From a virus (Duplodnaviria; Caudoviricetes), in IMG/VR virus record IMGVR_UViG_2687453119_000006, positions 1 to 64,000 of that record: a stretch of DNA of 64,000 nt; one strand, written 5' to 3'. The position numbers were made by a program, and so were the translations under genes. This document shows, piece by piece, positions 26,989 through 64,000 of the stretch. The stretch's first letter is position 1, and every line of letters starts with the position of its first letter. The notes under the pieces were generated by a model that searched no databases, was not told where the DNA came from, and was given only the letters and a program-made list of their open reading frames with translations.

Positions 26989-29094
26989 TTAAGCGGCTTG
27001 GTCGAGTTCGATGTGCTCCGAGCTGGCCGGCTCATCCACCAAGGGCGGACGGCAGAGCAGCTCGAAGTAGTGGTTGAGGTTGTCGCGGACATTCACGTTG
27101 TCGCCGTACTGGCTCAATCCGCCGATGATGTTGCGCATCAACGGATATTCGTCGCAGATGTCCGTCCACTTTTGGTCGATCACCCTGATAGGACAGACGA
27201 CAGCAGGCGTGTCGGTATGGACACCGAGGCTCGCCAGGGCATCGATCGCCTTGTCGGAGTCGGTCTCCTCCATCTTGTTCTGCTTCAGCACTTCGATCAG
27301 CGCGTCGAGGTCTGCCTTGAACTCCTTCAGATCCTCAGGAGCCCTTTCCCAGACGGCCAGCTTCGCGATACCCTTGAGGCGGTAGTCGAGATTGCTAAGC
27401 GTCTTGTCCTTCAGGCCGGTTTGCTCAGTCAGATCGACCTTGTCCTTCAGCTGATCGATCAGCTCGGGGCCGAGCATTGTCCAGTTGTCGGGCACTTCCT
27501 GACCCGGCTGCTTGACCAGGACGGTGGTGCCCGGGTCGATGAAGCCGAACTTGACGCACAGCTTGATCAGGGTGTCCATGTCGTAGAGACGGACGCCCGA
27601 ACCATGCGGCGTGAGGCGGAAGTACTCACCGCGCCGCCGCCGGCTGTAGGGTGCCGGCGCCTGCTCGACGAAGTAGCCGCCGTCTGCCAGGTCGATGTGC
27701 TGGGTGGTAGAACGCAACTGACCCTCTTCGAGGATCTCGATGGTCTTGCGTTTGCGGACCAACTTGCCGAGGACCTTCTCGACCGGCACCTTGAAGGCGT
27801 CGAGATCGATGACCTCGGGATTGCCGAGGTGATGAAGGACAGTCGCGCGATCGGCCCGCTTGCAGCGCACCCAGAGGATCTTCTCTCCGACCAGGTTGGC
27901 CATGGCGAACCGGCTGAGCGAATACCGCGGCGTGTGCTCCATCACGATCTTGGCGTCGCGCGGCCAGCTCGACCTGACTGATCCACCCTCGAACTTGTCG
28001 AAGTGGTGCCAGCCGTCCGGAAGCGTACAGAGCTTGGCGCCCGGCACGCTCAGGGTGGTCGACAGCCGGTGACCACGCCAGGTCACGGCGTTGCGCATCC
28101 GGGCTTCGCGGGTCTCGCCCAGTCCGACGCACATGTCGTGGCAGGCCTGATTGGCAGCGAACAGGTTCTCCGAGGCATCGACCTTGTCCTGGAGCTGGGT
28201 GATGAAGGCGCTTTCGTAGGCCTGCACCAGCTCGGTCAGCGTCGCCTTGGTCCCGTCGCTGTAGGCGATCTGCTCGCGGGACAGGGTGACCTTGAGAGAG
28301 CCGATCGGCGCCTCGAACAGGACGCAGTCGTTCTCGCTGAGGAAGCCCGAGCTGCGGATCTGACTGAGGTCGAACGGATAGATCGCGCAGCCCATGCGGA
28401 CGTGGGGACCGTAGAACGGAACCGAGGAGTGCTTGTAGGTGGTCCAGTATTCGCCCTGCGACTGGATGATCGGCTCGTCCCACTCGATCGCCGGGAAGAT
28501 CGTCGGTCGCGGGTTGAAGCCCCACAGCACGTCACGCGCTGCCTGGTGGAAGTCGTAGATGTCCTCGCGGCGAACCGCGAACGACACTTCGAGACCAGAC
28601 GGCTCGGTGGTCGGCATCTCGATCATGGTGTCCATGATCAGCTCGCCCTCATCGGAGAGCGACATCACGTAGGAGCGCATCCAGCCGTCGTGGTAGGATG
28701 TGACGTTGTAGGTGCCGGCGCCATTGTCGGTGATCAGGTAGGAGAACGGGCTCTTGGAGCCCAGGCCCCAGCCGCCGACTTTGCCATTGTCCGTCCGCTT
28801 GGTCGAAGCGTAGAGCTTGCCGTAAACCTGCTGCATGGTGTCGTCCGACATGCCCGGACCGTAGTCGCGCACCCGGAAGATCGGATTGAGTTCGGTCGGC
28901 AGGTGGACCTCGAAGTTGCCCTTGCACTCGTCCCAGGCATTGCTCGAAATCTCGCGCATCGGATAGCGGATCTTATCCTTCGCAAGACCCGTGACCTGAG
29001 CATAGAACGACACCGCGTTGGCCTCGAACTCGACCTTCGTCCGCTTCAGGGAGCCGGACGTGACGTTGGTGCGCTGCTGCATATCAAGTTTCAT
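26989..29094 (-). CDS. rIIA-like protein (GHKL ATPase N-terminus)
   Basis: REISSNAWD, VRDYGPGM, STK, GGWGLGSKSPFSY, LSREQI. Confidence 0.85.
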   Translation of the reverse strand: MKLDMQQRTNVTSGSLKRTKVEFEANAVSFYAQVTGLAKDKIRYPMREISSNAWDECKGNFEVHLPTELNPIFRVRDYGPGMSDDTMQQVYGKLYASTKRTDNGKVGGWGLGSKSPFSYLITDNGAGTYNVTSYHDGWMRSYVMSLSDEGELIMDTMIEMPTTEPSGLEVSFAVRREDIYDFHQAARDVLWGFNPRPTIFPAIEWDEPIIQSQGEYWTTYKHSSVPFYGPHVRMGCAIYPFDLSQIRSSGFLSENDCVLFEAPIGSLKVTLSREQIAYSDGTKATLTELVQAYESAFITQLQDKVDASENLFAANQACHDMCVGLGETREARMRNAVTWRGHRLSTTLSVPGAKLCTLPDGWHHFDKFEGGSVRSSWPRDAKIVMEHTPRYSLSRFAMANLVGEKILWVRCKRADRATVLHHLGNPEVIDLDAFKVPVEKVLGKLVRKRKTIEILEEGQLRSTTQHIDLADGGYFVEQAPAPYSRRRRGEYFRLTPHGSGVRLYDMDTLIKLCVKFGFIDPGTTVLVKQPGQEVPDNWTMLGPELIDQLKDKVDLTEQTGLKDKTLSNLDYRLKGIAKLAVWERAPEDLKEFKADLDALIEVLKQNKMEETDSDKAIDALASLGVHTDTPAVVCPIRVIDQKWTDICDEYPLMRNIIGGLSQYGDNVNVRDNLNHYFELLCRPPLVDEPASSEHIELDQAA

Positions 29095-37799: not shown

Positions 37800-39458
37800 C
37801 TACATCTTGGTCGAAAGGATCTTGCACTTGCCCAAATTCTTGAAAAGGCTAGCTGGATAGGAGTCCGCATAATTGAGCTTTACGGCCGTGAGCAGCTTCG
37901 CAATGGTAGTATCGACTAGGCTTGGGATCTGGCCCTCTACCGAGACGAATGTCTTGCCTGAAGCCACCCCCAAAACGCTTAGGACGGCCCATTCGATGAA
38001 GCGATTTCCATGAACGCAGATGAGACCGTCACGCCCCGTGTACTTCTTCGATTCTGAGCTCAATGCCAGATCAACAGCCCGAAGTCCCTGCACTGCCTGC
38101 CAAACGTGGGGTCCAGTGACCCCGCCGTTGAAGAGCTGCTTGTAGGGCGCTTTTGACAGATCTTCCCAGAGCTTACCAATCTCGCGCTTCGCCTGGACGG
38201 CTAGCGATACGTCGGAGTTTGAGCATGCCAGCGCCACTGTTGCCTCCGTAAGGTCAAACCTCTTTGCGGCAGACCCGCTCGAAGCTCCCGACTTGTATGC
38301 ATACTCGACTCCCTCGATGTGGAGTTCTTGTCGAATTCTCTCCTGCTCGGGATCCAGAGCAACGAAATCACGCTTTTCAATCGCGTTCTGTGTGTTGGTG
38401 AACCTCGTAACCTCAGAGGCAAAGGCCGACGGGCTCTTTTCACTAGAGATTATTCGTAGCGGAACCATCGCTTTCTGAACTGACTCGGGATTTAGTGTCG
38501 CTGCCGCAAAGATCGAACCTACCGTTTGCGCGCCATTCACGACAGAGAAACCGGCGCATTCAAAGATGCCCGATTCGGTCGAGTTTCCGCCTATTGGCTT
38601 CTTCGCCACTCCGGATGCAACAACTGTGATACCGTTGTTGAAGTACCAGAAATCCTCCGGACGCTTCAATAGCGTGTCCACGATGTCCTGATTGACTTGG
38701 CTCGTCCCCAAGAACTGTCGAAGGTTCTTGTCGAACAATCGGCTACCGTTGACTTTCATCCAACTGGCAACGTCAGCGGCGCACACCTGGCCATAGACGC
38801 CGAAATGCGGTTCTTTTACTTGCCCCCATCCATATAGCTGAACTTCAGCCGATACCGGGGCTCCCGCCAACCCAGCCGCAACGGCTTTGTGCAGATCGCC
38901 CTGCTTCAGCACGCGCACGAACATGAGGTCAGACGTGTCATTTTGGGATGTCACGTAACTGTCGAGCGCAGCTTGGACCTCGACACTCAAGTCCTCTTGG
39001 CCGGTATGAGCTATGACGAGCACAAAATTCGCATTTGCGTCGAACAGAGCACTCTCAATGTCCGGCTTCTTAGCCTGTATTCGCGAATTTAGCGACGCGA
39101 TGTCGTTGTCGAGAAGTTTCTTCACGCCGTCGATAAACTTCAGGACCTCGCCGAGTTCAATGGACCCGTGTCCGTCCTCATGCCATTTTGTCTGGACCAG
39201 ATACAGAGTTCGATCGTTCGGACTGAAATGGACCAAATCGATACCGCCATCCTGCGCGCCGTCCGTCACTGACTTCGCCAGTTCTTCGATAGGCTCCTCA
39301 GTCATTTGCGAAACAGCCAGTGCGGCAAGCCCTCGCGTGAGAAAGGCCTTTTTGACCTGCTGCGGATCGGAATGATGAGCGTAGTCACTCATGTCGATCC
39401 GGCTGTCCAATTTGGACTTCAGATACCCCTCAGTTTGGGTAACGTGCAACTTGGACAT
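37800..39458 (-). CDS. AIPR-family (abortive infection phage resistance) protein
   Basis: DGGID..VQTKW nuclease-like N-terminus; NLRQFLG, FWYFNNGIT, VNGAQT, TNTQN; lower GC. Confidence 0.88.
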   Translation of the reverse strand: MSKLHVTQTEGYLKSKLDSRIDMSDYAHHSDPQQVKKAFLTRGLAALAVSQMTEEPIEELAKSVTDGAQDGGIDLVHFSPNDRTLYLVQTKWHEDGHGSIELGEVLKFIDGVKKLLDNDIASLNSRIQAKKPDIESALFDANANFVLVIAHTGQEDLSVEVQAALDSYVTSQNDTSDLMFVRVLKQGDLHKAVAAGLAGAPVSAEVQLYGWGQVKEPHFGVYGQVCAADVASWMKVNGSRLFDKNLRQFLGTSQVNQDIVDTLLKRPEDFWYFNNGITVVASGVAKKPIGGNSTESGIFECAGFSVVNGAQTVGSIFAAATLNPESVQKAMVPLRIISSEKSPSAFASEVTRFTNTQNAIEKRDFVALDPEQERIRQELHIEGVEYAYKSGASSGSAAKRFDLTEATVALACSNSDVSLAVQAKREIGKLWEDLSKAPYKQLFNGGVTGPHVWQAVQGLRAVDLALSSESKKYTGRDGLICVHGNRFIEWAVLSVLGVASGKTFVSVEGQIPSLVDTTIAKLLTAVKLNYADSYPASLFKNLGKCKILSTKM

Positions 39459-39927
39459 GGTTTCGCGCTTTCCATTTTGGTCGAGTTGAGTATGCCGATC
39501 AAGATTCGATGCTGCCACTGATTCTATCGGGTTTGTAGATCCATGCCAACGATCGCGGGGGAATAGCGATTTTTAGCCGGGCGGCCCGGTCGGAAAGCTG
39601 AACGCACCAGCGAAGTGACTCCGGATCGTCGGTCACCTCACTGGCATCCGCAGTCAGATCGGATATTCGTCGACCTCGCAACCGCGGCCAGCGTAATGGC
39701 GCGCTGCACTCACTGGCGCCGACCTCTCTCGCGCTGACCGAATCTGCTCCGCACTCGTCATGCCTTTCCTGGCATACACGGTGACGCGGTATCTCCTCTA
39801 GGGCAGTCGATATATGTTCGAGCAGCTCTACGTTGCTCATGATATTGATGTGGCCTCAACGTCCTCAACCTCCTTGAGGCGGGCGCTGTTGGCGAACCAG
39901 ACGTTCCACATGACATCTCTAGCAACG

Positions 39928-45441: not shown

Positions 45442-45834
45442 TCATACGGGTTCATCGAGAGCCTCGATCGGCGTCGCGCGCTTGATCGCCTCGGCGATGA
45501 TTTGGTTGGCTCGCTCGTAGCCGTCCGACCTGTCGTTCATCACGACGTAGTCCGGCTCGTCGAACAGGGTGTCGGATGCCTTGGACAGATAATCGGCTGT
45601 GGTGATGTAGGCGTCCGTCTGGTCGCTCTTGGTCTGCATCAGCAGCGCGCCGTCCAGACAGCAGCGGCTGATCCGGGTGTATTCGTCGAACCAGAGGCCC
45701 GTGAAGTTCTTGACCTGAAGCACGCCGCTCTCGTCGAGAACCTGAAAGTGGTTGTGGCGGCACCAGCGCGCTGGGTCGCTCAGTTGCTTCTGCATGCCTT
45801 CGAGGATGCAGCGGATCGTGCTTCTGTCAGTCAT
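45442..45834 (-). CDS. Hypothetical phage protein
   Basis: W...CCLDGAL...ND pattern, like 5177-5506. Confidence 0.6.
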   Translation of the reverse strand: MTDRSTIRCILEGMQKQLSDPARWCRHNHFQVLDESGVLQVKNFTGLWFDEYTRISRCCLDGALLMQTKSDQTDAYITTADYLSKASDTLFDEPDYVVMNDRSDGYERANQIIAEAIKRATPIEALDEPV

Positions 45835-45836
45835 TT

Positions 45837-46482
45837 TCAAGTCTCCGGACGTTGCTCGGTCAGCTCGTCGTCGCTGATCCAGATGAAGCGATAGGTCGCG
45901 TCGTGATCGAACAGCGCCTTCGTATTGCTCAGCAGCTCGACGTTGCGTGGATGCACCGCGTAGCTCGCGCCCCATCCGGTGCGCTGCCGCTCGGCCGCGG
46001 TGCCGCGCTTGATGGCCAGGGTGTGGATGTCCTGATAGGTGATGACGAGGTCACGGCTGACGTACTTCCACTGCGGAGGTGTCGGCATGATCAGAACTCC
46101 GTAATGTGCCGCTCGTAGTAGGCCTTGGTGGCCTCGGCAGCGTCGCAGATGGAGCGGGACGGGAAGCGGAGCGGGCCCTTGATCTGCTTGCGGTAGAGGG
46201 GGACCACGTTCAGATCGAAGTGCTGGTCCCACGCGACGATCGGATCGTGGTTGCGAGCCATCGCGAGGTGCTGCTGGTAGAACGGGCCGGTGTTGATCGC
46301 GAAGAGATGCAGGTCGTTGGCGCTGACGATGTGTGTCATCAGATCACCCCGAACACGAAGTGCAGGAGGATCCAGACGGGCAGGGCGAGGATCAGGCAGG
46401 CCCATGCGATGTTGATCGCCACCGCGAACAGCATCAGGCCGATGCCGACCAGAGTGCCTGCGATCATTCCGAGCGTTTTCAT
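45837..46482 (-). other. Three small genes (45837-46088, 46091-46339, 46339-46482 membrane peptide)
   Basis: Coupled ORFs; the 46339-46482 product is a 47-aa hydrophobic peptide. Confidence 0.55.
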
Positions 46483-46529
46483 TTGCGTTTGCCTTCAAGC
46501 AAGGCCCAAGGCGCACCTCGGGCGTGAAA

Positions 46530-47107
46530 TGGGTTGGTGGGCTGGACGTGCTTCACGGGCAGACGAACCGCCTCCACCGTTTCCAGCTCTCGCTACCACC
46601 ATCGCGACCACATCCGTGGTCCGGGCCTGAGTTTTGCCGAGAGCGCTCGGCTTCCCTTCATAGGGACGGCATCCCTACTAGCCCGGCGCGACCCAGGCTC
46701 GTCTCGCACATCCCCTCACAGCGTCCGCATGTGCGGCGTCCCGTGTGACGCAAGGCAGGCGCTACACTGTGAGGGGACGAAAGGCCCCAGCAGATGGTTT
46801 GTGGGCTGCTGGCCCCACTCTGCGTCCGGTCGCTCGCGGTTCACCGGGTAGTCGAATTGTTGCCGGGAAGCGCCGGCTCGCCACTGCGTTTGGGTCGCAG
46901 CAACCAAATACGCTGCCGATTTCTCCGGCTCGCGAACTTCATCATCATGTCCATGGTGGCCATCATCGCCAGGCGCGGACCGGCACCTATGTGGCTAGGC
47001 CGTTTGAAAGTGAGCGACAGCTAGAAAGATCGCTGCCCTCGGTGGTCCTGCCGTGTTTGCCCCTTGCCTCTGGATGACTGCGGCTTGTGACTCGCATCCG
47101 GGGCTCC
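46530..47107 (-). ncRNA. Candidate large structured ncRNA (~580 nt; GOLLD/ROOL-like size and context)
   Basis: Gap without a credible CDS in a dense operon; more than 12 nested helices, G-U pairs only on the minus strand. Confidence 0.7.
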
Positions 47108-47108
47108 A

Positions 47109-48154
47109 TCACGCCGCCTTCTTAGGTGCGGGTGAAAGCTCTTCCTCGAAACGCAGCCACCTCACGCGGTCGGCGTCTCGAATGATGTATTGGCCTTGGC
47201 TGTGGCCGATGACCTGCCCGACGAACTTCGGCGCATTGCCGACCCGGGCCGATTGGACCCATTCGCCCTTCGCGTACTTCATGCGGCCTCGCTCGGCAGC
47301 TTGAAGTGCTCGTAGAGCCAGGTCGGGCCGAACTCGTTGCGGATGGCGTGCAGCGCCGGGTGCTCCTTGCCGGACCGGTCACGCCAGATGCGGGCGTTGT
47401 ACCAGTAGGTCATGGAGAGGGTGTCGCGCCACTTCTTGCCATGCGCCGCGGCGAAGGCCGTGATGGACTCCATTTCATCGGCGAGGAGCCGTCGATACTG
47501 GCTCATGATGCTTGCCCCTCCTCGGCCGCAGCGGGCTGGTCGTCGAGACCTCGCAGCTGGGCGATCAACTCGCGGGTTAGGCGGGCTTCATCGGGGTGGC
47601 CAAGCTCCTCGTCGCTATCCTCCATCGCGATCAAGGCAGCGATGATGCGGTGGAGGCCGCCACGGAAGATCACGTCCCGATCGGCAGCGGTGACAATCGT
47701 CGGGCGCACGTATCCCGTGCCCTCGACGTAGTCGTACTTCTTCTCGATGATCTCATGGACCACCATCTCCGGCTGGTAGATGTTGGAGGTGATGACCGCA
47801 GCGCGGATCAGATCGGTCCAGTCGCTAGGCTTGTCGCCCCAGCCCTTGACCATGTCCAGATCGACCGAGAACGTCATGGTGATGGCGCAGCGCTTCTTCA
47901 TGTCAGGCTCTCCCGGGTTTAGCCCAGACGCCGGCCGCCACCTCGTACATGCGAGGGGTGCAGTAGCCGACGAACTTGGCGCCGCAGTCGAGCGCGAAGG
48001 CAGCGTCGCGGCGGTCGGTGGTGACGTAGGCGCGGCCGGCTTCGTCCTCGAAGGTGAAGGTCGGCAGGCCTTGGCGGAGGTAGTGGTCGGCCGCCTTGAG
48101 CGCGCGGACGCGGCTCTCGATGATGACGGGATCGGTGTGTGGCATCAGGTCCAT
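47109..48154 (-). other. Four small early genes (47109-47282, 47279-47506, 47503-47901, 47903-48154)
   Basis: Coupled ORFs with SD sequences. Confidence 0.6.
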
Positions 48155-51500: not shown

Positions 51501-51768
51501 CATCTTCGCCAATCCCCCTCCAGGAGCATCAGCCGAGCCCGTCCATGAGCCTGGCGGCCCCGGTCCGATACTCTGGACCCCGAGCTGGAGCCACTCTGGG
51601 CGGCCCCCGCAGCGCGTCGCCGCGGCGACCCCCATTGGCGTTTGCATTAGCGCAAACGTCCGAGCAAATCAAGAGGGGGATGGCCTGAAAAAAGACCCCC
51701 TCGATCGGGAGGTTCACCCGCGCGCCGCCACCCCTAAAAGGCCATTTGCGCCTTGGGCTCACGGCGGG

Positions 51769-52458
51769 CGTGGGTAGCGAGCGCTTCGCGCTACCGGAAG
51801 GACGCATCAATGGCCGCGTGGCCCCTGGTGGAAGGGGACCACATCGCCGTCCGCTGCGCGGATCACGGCCCTGGCCATCGGCGTCGGGTCGAACCCGAGA
51901 TCTGCGACCGCCTCGGCCACGCCCTGGCGCTGCAGCTCGGCGACGATCGCCTCGGTCACCTTCATCAGCCTGGCCGTCTCGGCGGCGCTGTCGGTCATGG
52001 TCGTGCCCTCGGTAGAGCCGAGATCATAGCACCACGCCGGCCGTGGGTAGCGAGCGCTCCGCGCTACCGGAAAGACTCTCCCCGGAACGCGGCGGCGATC
52101 TCGTAACCCTCTCCGGGCGCACCTATATGGCCGGCACGTTTCACGGCAGGAGGAGAACGAGATGTCGCTGAGCAACGAGTGGACCGAATGGCACCTGACG
52201 CCTGAGGGGTGGGTTCGCGGGACCGAGAAGGAAGACTTCCGAACGATCAACCGCGAGCCTCCGCCCGATCGGGTGAAGACTGTCGTCTACAAGCAGCGCC
52301 TCGCCTCGGTCTATTCGAAGCTGGAAGAGGGCCACAGCGTCACCTGGACCGCCAACGACAGCGCCGCGACATCCCGCCTTGAGACCAAATTCGGCCCCCG
52401 CCGCGCAATCTGTAGACCGTCGTCGTCGTCGAGCGCTTCGCGCTACTGGAAGAGACTC
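51769..52458. repeat. Three ~30-35-bp hairpin repeats (GGTAGCGAGCGCTTCGCGCTACCGGAA)
   Basis: Copies at 51769-51803, 52042-52076 and 52430-52458 (partial). Confidence 0.8.
51807..51998 (-). CDS. 63-aa hypothetical protein
   Basis: SD GAGGG; lies between repeats 1 and 2. Confidence 0.55.
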   Translation of the reverse strand: MTDSAAETARLMKVTEAIVAELQRQGVAEAVADLGFDPTPMARAVIRAADGDVVPFHQGPRGH

Positions 52459-63805: not shown

Positions 63806-63880
63806 GTCAGTGTAGCTCAATGGTAGAGCAGCGGCTTCATAAGCCGCAGGTCGTTGGTTCAACTCCTCCCGCTGGCACCA
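63806..63880 (+). tRNA. Phage tRNA with CAT anticodon (Met or Ile2), mismatched T-stem
   Basis: Acceptor GTCAGTG/CGCTGGC, D arm GCTC/GAGC, anticodon arm GCGGC-TTCATAA-GCCGC, CCA end. Confidence 0.8.
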
Positions 63881-64000
63881 ATTCGATCGAGGACGGAACG
63901 GCCTCCCGTCGCGCCATGATGACGATGGCAAAGTAGCTGACGCCGCCGCATTGCGGGTAGCGAAGAGATGCGGGACAGGGCACCCCGCCGATCGAACGAA

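What the first reader, a model, noticed from the sequence alone, without database searches (positions are those of the whole stretch)
46530..47107. ~580-nt ornate non-coding RNA embedded in the phage early operon
Seen: inside an operon of tightly coupled ORFs there is a ~600-bp gap, from the KKAA* stop at 47109 to a hairpin at 46505-46522, with no SD-supported ORF. The minus strand folds into many helices: a 14-bp UCCCCUCACAGUGU/ACGCUGUGAGGGGA stem (46764-46777 with 46711-46724) enclosing two hairpins; AGCCUGG/CCGGGCU; UAGGGAU/GUCCCUA; GCCGAG/CUCGGC; GACCAC/GUGGUC; CCAGCAG/CUGCUGG; CCGGU/ACCGG with a GCGA loop; and a 3' multibranch domain closed by UGGUGG/CCACCA and GCUGGA/UCCAGC. Several imperfect pairs are G-U on the minus strand but A-C on the plus strand, which points to selection on a minus-strand RNA. 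Purine-rich linkers (AUGAAGGGAA, AAAACUCA, GUAGCGAGA) join the helices. Known: GOLLD and ROOL are large ornate RNAs of phages and prophages. Inference: this is either a divergent alphaproteobacterial member of such a class or a new class, co-transcribed with early genes.
Basis: partly seen in the sequence, partly recalled or inferred. Interest (0 to 1): 0.9.

Follow-up and report, generated by a model that had tools for sequence, protein, structure and literature searches.

The report
Modular structured RNA in rhizobial prophage
A 600-base gene-free stretch in a virus of the soil bacterium Bradyrhizobium folds into a chain of conserved RNA structures that match no catalogued RNA family, but it is a mix-and-match string of modules, not one giant RNA, and its job is still unknown.

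Summary
The gap is real: 626 nt on the minus strand, from stop 47109 to ATG 46482. Folding energy alone is not exceptional. The case for structure rests on about 15 related sequences: Bradyrhizobium phage BDU-MI-1, IMG/VR proviruses and soil contigs. In these, five blocks keep their helices through compensatory changes: lead, A, B1 (an H-type pseudoknot), B2 and C. G-U outnumbers A-C 61 to 6, which places the structure on a minus-strand RNA. Indels are mostly not multiples of three, and no reading frame is conserved.

No Rfam 15 family matches, including GOLLD, ROOL, OLE, tmRNA, RNase P and introns. ARAGORN finds nothing there.

It is not one fixed 580-nt RNA. Only lead+A is always present, and B1 usually is. 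B2 and C are optional. B2 and C swap order in one relative. In seven loci, ORFs sit between A and B1. Four complete relatives lack the element.

Verdict: a genuine new family of modular structured RNA in the small-ORF block of BDU-MI-1-like phages. I think it most likely acts as autonomous RNA domains cut from the polycistronic transcript. A cis-acting role is nearly as likely. Distribution is narrow.

The parts
47109..47282 (-). Upstream 57-aa ORF (context). Its stop, UGA 47111-47109, lies 4 nt before the first conserved base of the RNA.
   Evidence: In 9 of 13 relatives an open frame of at least 35 codons ends 1-4 nt before the conserved 5' edge. In 3 of 13 it ends in the loop of the first hairpin.
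47013..47108 (-). Block 'lead', the 5' domain. It has helix CCCC (47103-47100) with GGGG (47063-47060), which encloses hairpin GGAUG/CAUCC (47099-47072). A third hairpin spans 47040-47012.
   Evidence: Conserved in 13 of 13 loci aligned. Of 14 RNAalifold pairs, 8 show compensatory changes. The third hairpin has unrelated sequence but stays a hairpin, and it is deleted in 2 of 13 (read by eye).
46851..47012 (-). Block A, the conserved core:
- long-range GGCC/GGCC (47001-46998 with 46961-46958)
- hairpin with loop GAGAAAU in the window (GGAGAAAU in some relatives) (46929-46915)
- hairpin GGUUGCUGCG...CGCAGUGGC (46905-46880)
- hairpin GCCGG...CCGGC (46877-46862)
   Evidence: Present in every related locus with the element. 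Of 25 pairs, 4 are compensatory. A diverged copy in G420 (43.9 bits) keeps the helices through further double changes. Only 10 of 72 indels are multiples of three.
46784..46850 (-). Block B1:
- CCGGU/ACCGG (46847-46826)
- H-type pseudoknot, S1 GUGGG/CCCAC (46818-46814 with 46805-46801)
- S2 CCAGCAG/CUGCUGG (46812-46806 with 46793-46787)
- L1 is 1 nt; L3 is AAACCAU
- 4-nt palindrome GGCC at 46786-46783
   Evidence: 12 sequences, 97.9% of cells paired, 5 pairs changed on both sides, and 0 of 500 shuffles reach the covariation score. S1 has 3 covarying pairs and S2 has 1.
46711..46783 (-). Block B2. A 14-bp outer stem (46777-46764 with 46724-46711) clamps a near-invariant core that holds hairpins GCGUC/GACGC (46751-46736) and CGC/GCG (46735-46726).
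   Evidence: 9 copies from 8 loci, 97.0% paired, 6 covarying pairs, 0 of 500 shuffles. It is duplicated in G003, absent in G001, L171 and L154, and lies after C in G005.
46533..46710 (-). Block C. It holds a three-way junction (46699-46621), hairpin GACCAC/GUGGUC (46621-46606), and a 3' domain closed by UGGUGG/CCACCA and GCUGGA/UCCAGC (46601-46535).
   Evidence: Found as a homologous block only in the window, G005/G114 and organism B. Window versus G005 shows 6 double compensatory changes, 3 one-sided changes and 0 broken pairs.
46483..46532 (-). Block D, the 3' border. It has hairpin GCCCGAGG/CCUUGGGC (46523-46504), then the phage's repeated motif TTGCTTGAAGGCAA (46502-46489), 6 nt before the ATG.
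   Evidence: The motif occurs 8 times in the window against 0.01 expected. D follows whichever block comes last in relatives.
46339..46482 (-). Downstream 47-aa hydrophobic ORF (context).
   Evidence: No family found.

Best explanation
The gap encodes a new family of structured non-coding RNA. It is read from the minus strand as part of the polycistronic transcript of a block of small phage ORFs. It is a chain of independently folding domains.

The domains are:
- A conserved core. This is lead+A, about 260 nt with at least 7 helices, usually followed by the B1 pseudoknot.
- Exchangeable accessory domains: B2, a clamped hairpin with an invariant core, and C, a 178-nt multi-junction fold.

Shown: the structures, the strand, the non-coding nature, the modularity, and the lack of any Rfam match.

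Inferred (about 45% of my weight): the domains work as RNA in their own right. They would be folded, stable pieces released from the long transcript. They would bind a host or phage factor as a decoy, sponge or scaffold. They would not regulate one particular neighbouring gene. I base this on three points. The neighbouring genes differ from phage to phage. The unpaired nucleotides are as conserved as the helices. The optional domains are swapped like cassettes.
For: Structure is conserved through change:
- lead: 8 of 14 pairs compensatory
- A: 4 of 25, plus further double changes in the diverged G420 copy
- B1: 5 of 20, with 0 of 500 shuffles as high
- B2: 6 of 22, with 0 of 500
- C: 6 double changes and 0 broken pairs between two sequences

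Strand: 61 G-U against 6 A-C among 811 paired cells.

Non-coding:
- Only 10 of 72 (A), 0 of 30 (B1) and 0 of 3 (B2) indels are multiples of three.
- Several sequences have stops in all three sense frames.
- The frame across the A start differs between relatives.
- There are no Pfam hits for 6 ORFs in the gap.

Modularity:
- window: A-B1-B2-C
- G005: A-B1-C-B2
- L171: A-B1-D
- BDU-MI-1: A-[3 ORFs]-B1-B2-D
- G001, G002, G004, G006, L034, L269: A-[46-aa basic ORF]-B1
- L154 and G420: A followed by unrelated ORF-free sequence

Not tied to one gene: the upstream and downstream ORFs differ. Two flanking proteins have no relative in 5 related records.

No known family.
Against: - No transcript has been shown.
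- No own promoter or terminator was found in 45800-47800: 0 sites of either kind. The RNA is therefore not an independent gene, and separate processed species are only an inference.
- Single-sequence stability of the blocks is ordinary.
- ORFs inserted between A and B1 make the blocks look like the 5' and 3' flanks of gene cassettes, which fits a cis role just as well.
- The conserved 5' edge abuts the upstream stop codon in 9 of 13 loci. This could mean coupling to translation.
- The element is dispensable. The A model finds nothing in 4 of 4 related records that are at least 90% complete.
- The alignments hold only 9-13 related sequences. Shuffles can therefore overstate covariation (see the tool's own caveat).
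Confidence: 0.5

Rival explanations
1. Cis-acting punctuation of the polycistronic mRNA. Under this reading the blocks are leaders and trailers of small gene cassettes. They would set mRNA processing, stability, Rho polarity or antitermination, or translation re-initiation for whatever lies next to them.
For: - The blocks flank inserted ORFs in 7 loci.
- The 5' edge contains or abuts the upstream stop codon in 9 of 13 loci, and in 3 more the stop lies in the first hairpin loop.
- The window has a UGAUG stop/start overlap.
- No own promoter or terminator was found.
- Block D joins a hairpin to a motif repeated 8 times before genes.
Against: - About 260 nt with at least 7 helices and invariant loops is far more than a stabiliser or processing site needs.
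- Four loci with no ORF between A and B1 (window, G005, L171, L261) still show compensatory changes among themselves.
- The genes next to A are not homologous between phages.
Confidence: 0.35
2. One large ornate RNA of about 580 nt that works as a single folded unit, possibly as an oligomer. This would be a new class comparable to GOLLD or ROOL.
For: - In the window the blocks are contiguous, with no promoter or terminator between them.
- The whole stretch folds better than shuffles on the minus strand only.
- A 4-nt palindrome after the pseudoknot stays a palindrome while changing (UGCA, AGCU, GGCC). This would suit self-pairing.
Against: - No inter-block helix is conserved.
- C is missing from most relatives.
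- B2 and C change order in G005.
- B2 is duplicated in G003.
- 221-600 nt of ORFs separate A from B1 in 7 loci.
- There is no Rfam match to any large RNA.
Confidence: 0.12
3. DNA-level element. Under this reading the conserved blocks are recombination linkers or an origin-like region of a hyperplastic genome segment, and the RNA structure is incidental.
For: Block boundaries coincide with breakpoints of gene shuffling between relatives.
Against: - Compensatory double changes keep the helices.
- The 61:6 excess of G-U over A-C is not expected for a duplex-DNA signal.
Confidence: 0.05
4. Decayed or unrecognised protein-coding sequence.
For: - A 40-aa ORF with a UGAUG overlap starts at 47109.
- Long antisense ORFs exist, as is usual in GC-rich DNA.
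Against: - Indels are mostly not multiples of three.
- Several homologues have stops in all frames.
- Three different frames cross the invariant ACGGCCUAGCC.
- There are no Pfam or PHROG hits.
Confidence: 0.02

Closest known systems
GOLLD, ROOL and OLE large ornate RNAs. (PMC12286853, abstract seen in the search listing. The association with prophages is recalled.)
   Same: Hundreds of nucleotides of non-coding, multi-helix RNA, carried by a (pro)phage, with unknown function.
   Different: - No covariance-model similarity.
- Not one fixed architecture but a conserved ~260-330-nt core plus optional blocks.
- Embedded in an ORF run, not next to tRNA genes.
- Seen so far only in BDU-MI-1-like Bradyrhizobium phages.
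- Oligomer formation was not tested.
Intercistronic structured RNA of phage early transcripts: T7 RNase III sites, and lambda nut / HK022 put antitermination RNAs (recalled, not tested here).
   Same: Structured RNA inside a polycistronic phage operon, without its own promoter, placed between small ORFs.
   Different: Those elements are single or double hairpins of about 60-70 nt. Here the core alone has at least 7 helices, a pseudoknot and long invariant single strands. No boxA-like or RNase III features were examined.
3'UTR-derived small RNAs of bacteria (recalled).
   Same: An RNA that begins at or just after a stop codon and could be released from the mRNA by processing.
   Different: Much larger. 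No terminator-type 3' end. No evidence of Hfq-type seed regions.
Promoter-stem-loop shuffling cassettes of T4-type phage hyperplastic regions (recalled).
   Same: Block D, a hairpin plus a repeated gene-proximal motif, and the shuffled small ORFs resemble such cassettes.
   Different: This applies to block D only. Blocks lead, A, B1, B2 and C are unique in the genome: one copy by BLAST and by model.

Membership tests
GOLLD / ROOL / OLE (Rfam large ornate RNAs) | Match to the family covariance model at or near its gathering score. | tested here: not met
   - Window at gathering threshold: 3 hits, none in the region.
- E<=10 on 46300-47300: 4 hits, and two sub-ranges gave 3 hits each. All were miRNA, snoRNA, sRNA or frameshift-element models far below threshold.
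- 9 homologous loci: 1 unrelated hit outside the element.
GOLLD / ROOL / OLE (Rfam large ornate RNAs) | One large architecture shared by all members. | tested here: not met
   Block content and order differ among relatives, and ORFs lie between blocks.
GOLLD / ROOL / OLE (Rfam large ornate RNAs) | Homo-oligomeric RNA-only assembly (PMC12286853, abstract). | not testable with these tools
   The only hint is a covarying 4-nt palindrome.
tmRNA (including the two-piece alphaproteobacterial form), tRNA | tRNA-like domain and tag reading frame detectable by ARAGORN or Rfam. | tested here: not met
   ARAGORN finds only tRNA-Pro at 581 and tRNA-Met at 63806. There is no Rfam tmRNA hit.
H-type RNA pseudoknot (structural class, block B1) | Two crossing helices, each kept by covariation, with loop lengths that can span them. 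| tested here: met
   - S1: 5 bp, 3 covarying pairs, 100% paired.
- S2: 7 bp, 1 covarying pair, 98.8% paired.
- L1 is 1 nt, L2 is 0 nt, and L3 is a 7-8-nt A-rich loop.
Protein-coding gene | A conserved reading frame, with indels in multiples of three. | tested here: not met
Independent small-RNA gene | Own promoter and intrinsic terminator. | tested here: not met
   0 sigma-70-like promoters and 0 terminator-like sites in 45800-47800. This was a consensus scan only, and phage-specific promoters are not covered.
Riboswitch-type cis-regulatory leader | Consistently upstream of one class of gene. | tested here: not met
   Depending on the phage, the element downstream of A is B1, a basic 46-aa ORF, three other ORFs, a membrane peptide ORF, or unrelated non-coding sequence.
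New structured-RNA family (usual comparative criteria) | Several distinct homologues with helices supported by compensatory changes and no coding signal. | tested here: met
   13 distinct sequences for lead and A, 12 for B1, 9 for B2, and 2 for C.

The most novel reading that the evidence does not exclude
The locus is an RNA-level cassette array. A conserved core RNA (lead+A+B1) would anchor a hypervariable string of swappable folded RNA domains and micro-ORFs. This would be a phage counter-defence or host-takeover island built largely of RNA. The core might self-associate through the covarying palindrome next to the pseudoknot. That would make it a new class of phage RNA with a modular, evolvable architecture unlike GOLLD or ROOL.
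Probability: 0.18. Interest if true: 0.85.

Novelty: new variant of a known kind. Interest (0 to 1): 0.6.

Why it matters
Large structured RNAs of phages are few, and their functions are open. This one adds a family with unusually clear comparative support: five blocks, about 20 helices and one pseudoknot. It comes from a cultivable system, since phage BDU-MI-1 grows on Bradyrhizobium diazoefficiens USDA110. It also has an unusual property. Folded RNA domains are gained, lost, duplicated and reordered like genes. Natural variants that lack single domains, or the whole element, already exist, so domain-by-domain function can be tested directly. Its narrow distribution limits its general importance until a function is found.

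Tried and rejected
Known RNA families. I ran Rfam at gathering threshold and at E<=10 on the window, on two sub-ranges and on 9 homologous loci. I also ran ARAGORN. Nothing relevant came up.

Thermodynamics. The blocks folded alone are not more stable than shuffles, so I do not use energy as evidence.

Two predicted helices are left out of the argument:
- RNAalifold's small helix CGCC/GGCG in A would leave a 1-nt loop in most sequences. I treat it as an artefact.
- The 3-bp helix GCG/CGC in B1 covaries (C-G to G-C in 4 of 12 sequences). With CCGGU/ACCGG it would leave a 1-nt connector across a 5-bp helix, so I leave it open.

The 46-aa basic ORF between A and B1 in relatives reminded me of ArfA (recalled). 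Pfam, NCBIfam and PHROGs give no support, so I dropped the idea.

Promoters and terminators: none found.

Sequence hunts:
- An exact-pattern scan of genome contigs with a B2 pattern found 0.
BLAST of all 275 loci then held kept only 11 of these as homologues: L154, L171, L208, L214, L238, L261, L264, L268, L269 and L274, plus L034 from the viral scan.
- L208, L214, L238, L261 and L264 gave identical BLAST rows over the region. I counted them once, as L261. L268 duplicates G006 and was dropped.
- G003 was left out of A2 and A5 because its A is partial.

Distribution:
- Genus search: 7 of 401 genomes matched, of which 4 are real and 3 are 31-56-nt chance-level matches.
- Model R1 found 3 of 27 related viral records and 1 of 151 family genomes, which was the query's own source G007. 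Only 19 candidates per genome were scored there.
- DNA of B1-C-D found 3 of 27, of which only 1 is real.
- Synteny search with two flanking proteins in 5 records found nothing.

Expression:
- No RNA holder is listed for the stretch.
- Three runs labelled metagenomic RNA-Seq, whose RNA status is only guessed, hold small parts.
- A 217-nt contig in X18 and X19 may be one data set filed twice. It covers 46531-46703, which is block C only, and ends at the C/D border.
- A 151-nt contig in X20 covers 46723-46855, which is B1+B2.
- I take this as a weak hint at most, not as evidence of transcription.

Paper supplements were not consulted. A literature search for BDU-MI-1 or Bradyrhizobium phage (listing only) showed no paper on an RNA of this phage.

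Full report
WHAT THE WINDOW IS. The window is the first 64 kb of a 114.5-kb IMG/VR provirus record. Its only relative among deposited phages is Bradyrhizobium phage BDU-MI-1 (KY940711, 121 kb, host B. diazoefficiens USDA110). That phage matches half of the query at 82% identity. The minus strand from 5 to 39 kb carries genes for ribonucleotide reductase, an exonuclease, a primase/helicase, a helicase, an RIIA-like protein and an Abi-alpha-like protein. From about 41 to 50 kb there is a run of small, mostly overlapping minus-strand ORFs without known families. Calling this an 'early operon' is therefore an inference from the neighbourhood.

THE OBSERVATION. The 57-aa ORF stops at 47111-47109, and the 47-aa hydrophobic ORF starts at 46482. 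Between them lie 626 nt.

The whole stretch folds somewhat better than shuffles on the minus strand (z -2.5, 0 of 20 shuffles as stable). It does not on the plus strand (z -0.5, 7 of 20). The three parts folded separately are unremarkable: z +0.41, -1.26 and -1.64. In DNA this GC-rich, the helices alone would not be convincing.

One ORF was overlooked. A 40-aa frame runs from 47109 to 46987, and its AUG overlaps the upstream UGA.

RELATIVES. Exact-pattern scans, BLAST and one covariance model brought in the following homologous loci:
- BDU-MI-1
- Seven IMG/VR records: G001-G006 and G433 (locus L034)
- One Bradyrhizobium isolate genome, G007 (locus L154)
- Soil and plant metagenome contigs L171, L261 (five contigs with identical BLAST matches, counted once), L269 and L274
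- A diverged copy in provirus G420

Most of the 239 genome and metagenome pattern hits were chance matches in GC-rich DNA. BLAST of all held loci removed them.

The distribution is narrow:
- 4 real matches in 401 genomes of the genus
- 1 of 151 in the family with the model, which is the source genome itself
- 3 of 27 viral records related by primase
- None of the 4 related records that are at least 90% complete

Near-identical DNA (79% or more of sampled words) is held by runs of 10 studies besides the possible source.

THE REGION IS MODULAR. Homology breaks the gap into six blocks:
- lead, 47108-47013
- A, 47012-46851
- B1, 46850-46784
- B2, 46783-46711
- C, 46710-46533
- D, 46532-46483

The arrangements found are:
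- Window and one locus of 'organism B': lead-A-B1-B2-C-D
- G005 (and G114): lead-A-B1-C-B2
- L171: lead-A-B1-D
- L261: lead-A-B1
- G001: A-[221 nt with a 46-aa basic ORF]-B1-[236 nt]-D
- G002, G004, G006, L269 and the second locus of organism B: A-[basic ORF]-B1-B2
- L034: A-[insert]-B1-[about 280 nt]-D, with no B2
- BDU-MI-1: A-[three ORFs, 600 nt]-B1-B2-D
- G003: partial A-[membrane-peptide ORF]-B2-[93 nt]-B1-B2-D
- L154 and G420: A followed by unrelated ORF-free sequence of 300 and about 200 nt

Lead and A are in every locus. B1 is in 12. B2 is in 8, with 9 copies. C is in the window type and G005 only. B and C never turned up without A. Each block is single-copy in the window's genome.

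EACH BLOCK IS A CONSERVED RNA STRUCTURE.

Lead. Of 14 consensus pairs, 8 show compensatory changes. These include the 4-bp helix CCCC/GGGG (UCCC/GGGA in others) and the 7-bp hairpin it encloses. A third hairpin has unrelated sequence in different phages yet always pairs. It is missing in two (read by eye).

A.
- The hairpin GGUUGCUGCG/CGCAGUGGC has three covarying pairs.
- The long-range GGCC/GGCC has one.
- The terminal GC hairpin is invariant.
- A further hairpin keeps the loop G(G)AGAAAU. Its stem reads GCCG/CGGC, CCC/GGG, CCGG/CCGG or CGCGGGG/CCCCGCG (read by eye because the alignment is ragged there).
- The diverged G420 copy changes both sides of the GGCC helix (GACC/GGUC), of the terminal hairpin (GACCGG/CCGGUC) and of the central hairpins.

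B1. This is a classical H-type pseudoknot. S1 is GUGGG/CCCAC, with three covarying pairs and up to three pair types. Seven of the eight loop nucleotides of S1, CCAGCAG, form S2 with CUGCUGG downstream, with one covarying pair. L1 is 1 nt, and L3 is an A-rich stretch of 7-8 nt. In total 97.9% of cells are paired, and no shuffle in 500 reaches the covariation score. Sliding the partners by 1-3 columns collapses pairing to 30-38%.

B2. A 14-bp clamp with five covarying pairs surrounds a 40-nt core that is almost invariant. The core's GCGUC/GACGC hairpin covaries once.

C. The window and G005 differ at 6 pairs by double compensatory changes, at 3 pairs on one side, and break none. One hairpin is remodelled from GGCGG-UUCGU-CUGCC to GGC-GAAA-GCC.

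Over all tested helices there are 61 G-U and 6 A-C cells. The constraint is therefore on the minus-strand transcript.

IT IS NOT CODING. Indels are rarely multiples of three: 10 of 72 in A, 0 of 30 in B1 and 0 of 3 in B2. Several homologues have stops in all three sense frames. Three different frames cross the invariant ACGGCCUAGCC. Six ORFs in the gap have no Pfam match.

IT MATCHES NO KNOWN FAMILY. Rfam 15 gives nothing at gathering score. At E<=10 it gives only miRNA, snoRNA, sRNA and frameshift-element noise. This holds for the window, for two sub-ranges and for nine homologous loci. ARAGORN finds no tRNA or tmRNA there.

BORDERS.
- At the 5' end, the conserved sequence starts at the upstream stop codon. 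An open frame ends 1-4 nt before it in 9 of 13 loci and in the first hairpin loop in 3 of 13, although the upstream ORFs are not all homologous.
- At the 3' end, block D is a hairpin followed by TTGCTTGAAGGCAA. This is one of eight copies of an oriented motif (expected 0.01) that precede minus-strand genes. One copy directly follows a strong terminator-like hairpin.
- No sigma-70-type promoter or intrinsic terminator lies inside the gap.

HOW IT MOST LIKELY WORKS. The following are shown: a string of independently folding, selectively maintained RNA domains on the transcript of the small-ORF block.

The rest is inferred. The neighbouring genes are not conserved. The single-stranded nucleotides are as conserved as the helices. 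The accessory domains behave like cassettes. For these reasons I favour domains that act as RNA in their own right after release from the long transcript, binding a host or phage factor. I give this about 45%.

A cis role in processing, stability, polarity or re-initiation is nearly as likely, at about 35%. It is favoured by the stop-codon junction, by the ORFs that sit between blocks, and by the lack of own transcription signals.

A single obligate 580-nt ornate RNA is unlikely, at about 12%. A DNA-level or coding explanation is very unlikely.

COMPARISON AND NOVELTY. It resembles GOLLD and ROOL in being a large, phage-borne, function-unknown structured RNA (PMC12286853, abstract in the listing). 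It fails the membership tests that could be run: the model match and the single shared architecture. In position it resembles the intercistronic RNA elements of T7, lambda and HK022 early transcripts (recalled), but it is far more complex. I rate it a new variant of a known kind: a new RNA family whose distinctive trait is domain-level modularity.

LIMITS.
- No expression data exist. The only RNA-labelled material is three soil or rhizosphere runs of uncertain nature that hold block C alone or B1+B2.
- The alignments are small, and their sequences are related.
- A model could be run only on held loci and 178 records or genomes.
- Supplements of papers were not seen.

Noticed in passing
window 9254, 13786, 15995, 16814, 25906, 31843, 40975, 46489 (14 nt each): An oriented motif, TTGCATTCAAGCAA on the + strand, occurs 8 times against 0.01 expected. 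All copies are intergenic and precede minus-strand genes. One copy sits right after a strong GC hairpin with a U run. It is a candidate phage promoter or operator.
   Followed up: partly
window 63806-63996: tRNA-Met is followed 5 nt later by a skipping-rope RNA (Rfam, 57.1 bits against a gathering score of 36.7). tRNA-Pro is at 581-657.
   Followed up: no
window 51760-52455: Three copies of a 44-nt repeat that contains the palindrome GGTAGCGAGCGCTTCGCGCTACC (family D5). They lie in a stretch without clear phage genes.
   Followed up: no
L010:1333-1473 (-) and the same place in G002, G004, G006, L034, L269: A 46-aa, very basic ORF (P0001) sits between RNA blocks A and B1 in six relatives. No Pfam, NCBIfam or PHROG family matches. 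A recalled likeness to ArfA was not supported.
   Followed up: partly
L372:1140-1866 (record G420): A gap of about 720 nt without a convincing ORF holds the diverged A copy. It is followed by an unrelated ~150-nt domain closed by CGCUGGAGCA/UGCUCCAGCG. This looks like another accessory RNA domain.
   Followed up: partly
window 46786-46783 and column 69-72 of alignment A3: The four bases after the B1 pseudoknot are always a palindrome but differ between phages (UGCA, AGCU, GGCC). Possible explanations are a self-pairing site or a DNA-level site.
   Followed up: no
window 47111-47098 and homologous places: The stop codon of the upstream ORF is part of, or within 4 nt of, the conserved 5' edge (UGAGGYCCC) in 9 of 13 loci. 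This holds although the upstream ORFs are not all homologous.
   Followed up: partly
run X10 (organism B): One isolate holds two related loci. One is 98.7% identical to the window over 1601 nt. The other has 245 nt between A and B1-B2. This suggests two related prophages in one genome.
   Followed up: no
window 26989-29094 and 37800-39518: The prophage carries an RIIA-like protein (PHROG 612, E 4e-82) and an Abi-alpha-like protein (PHROG 1841, E 4e-91).
   Followed up: no
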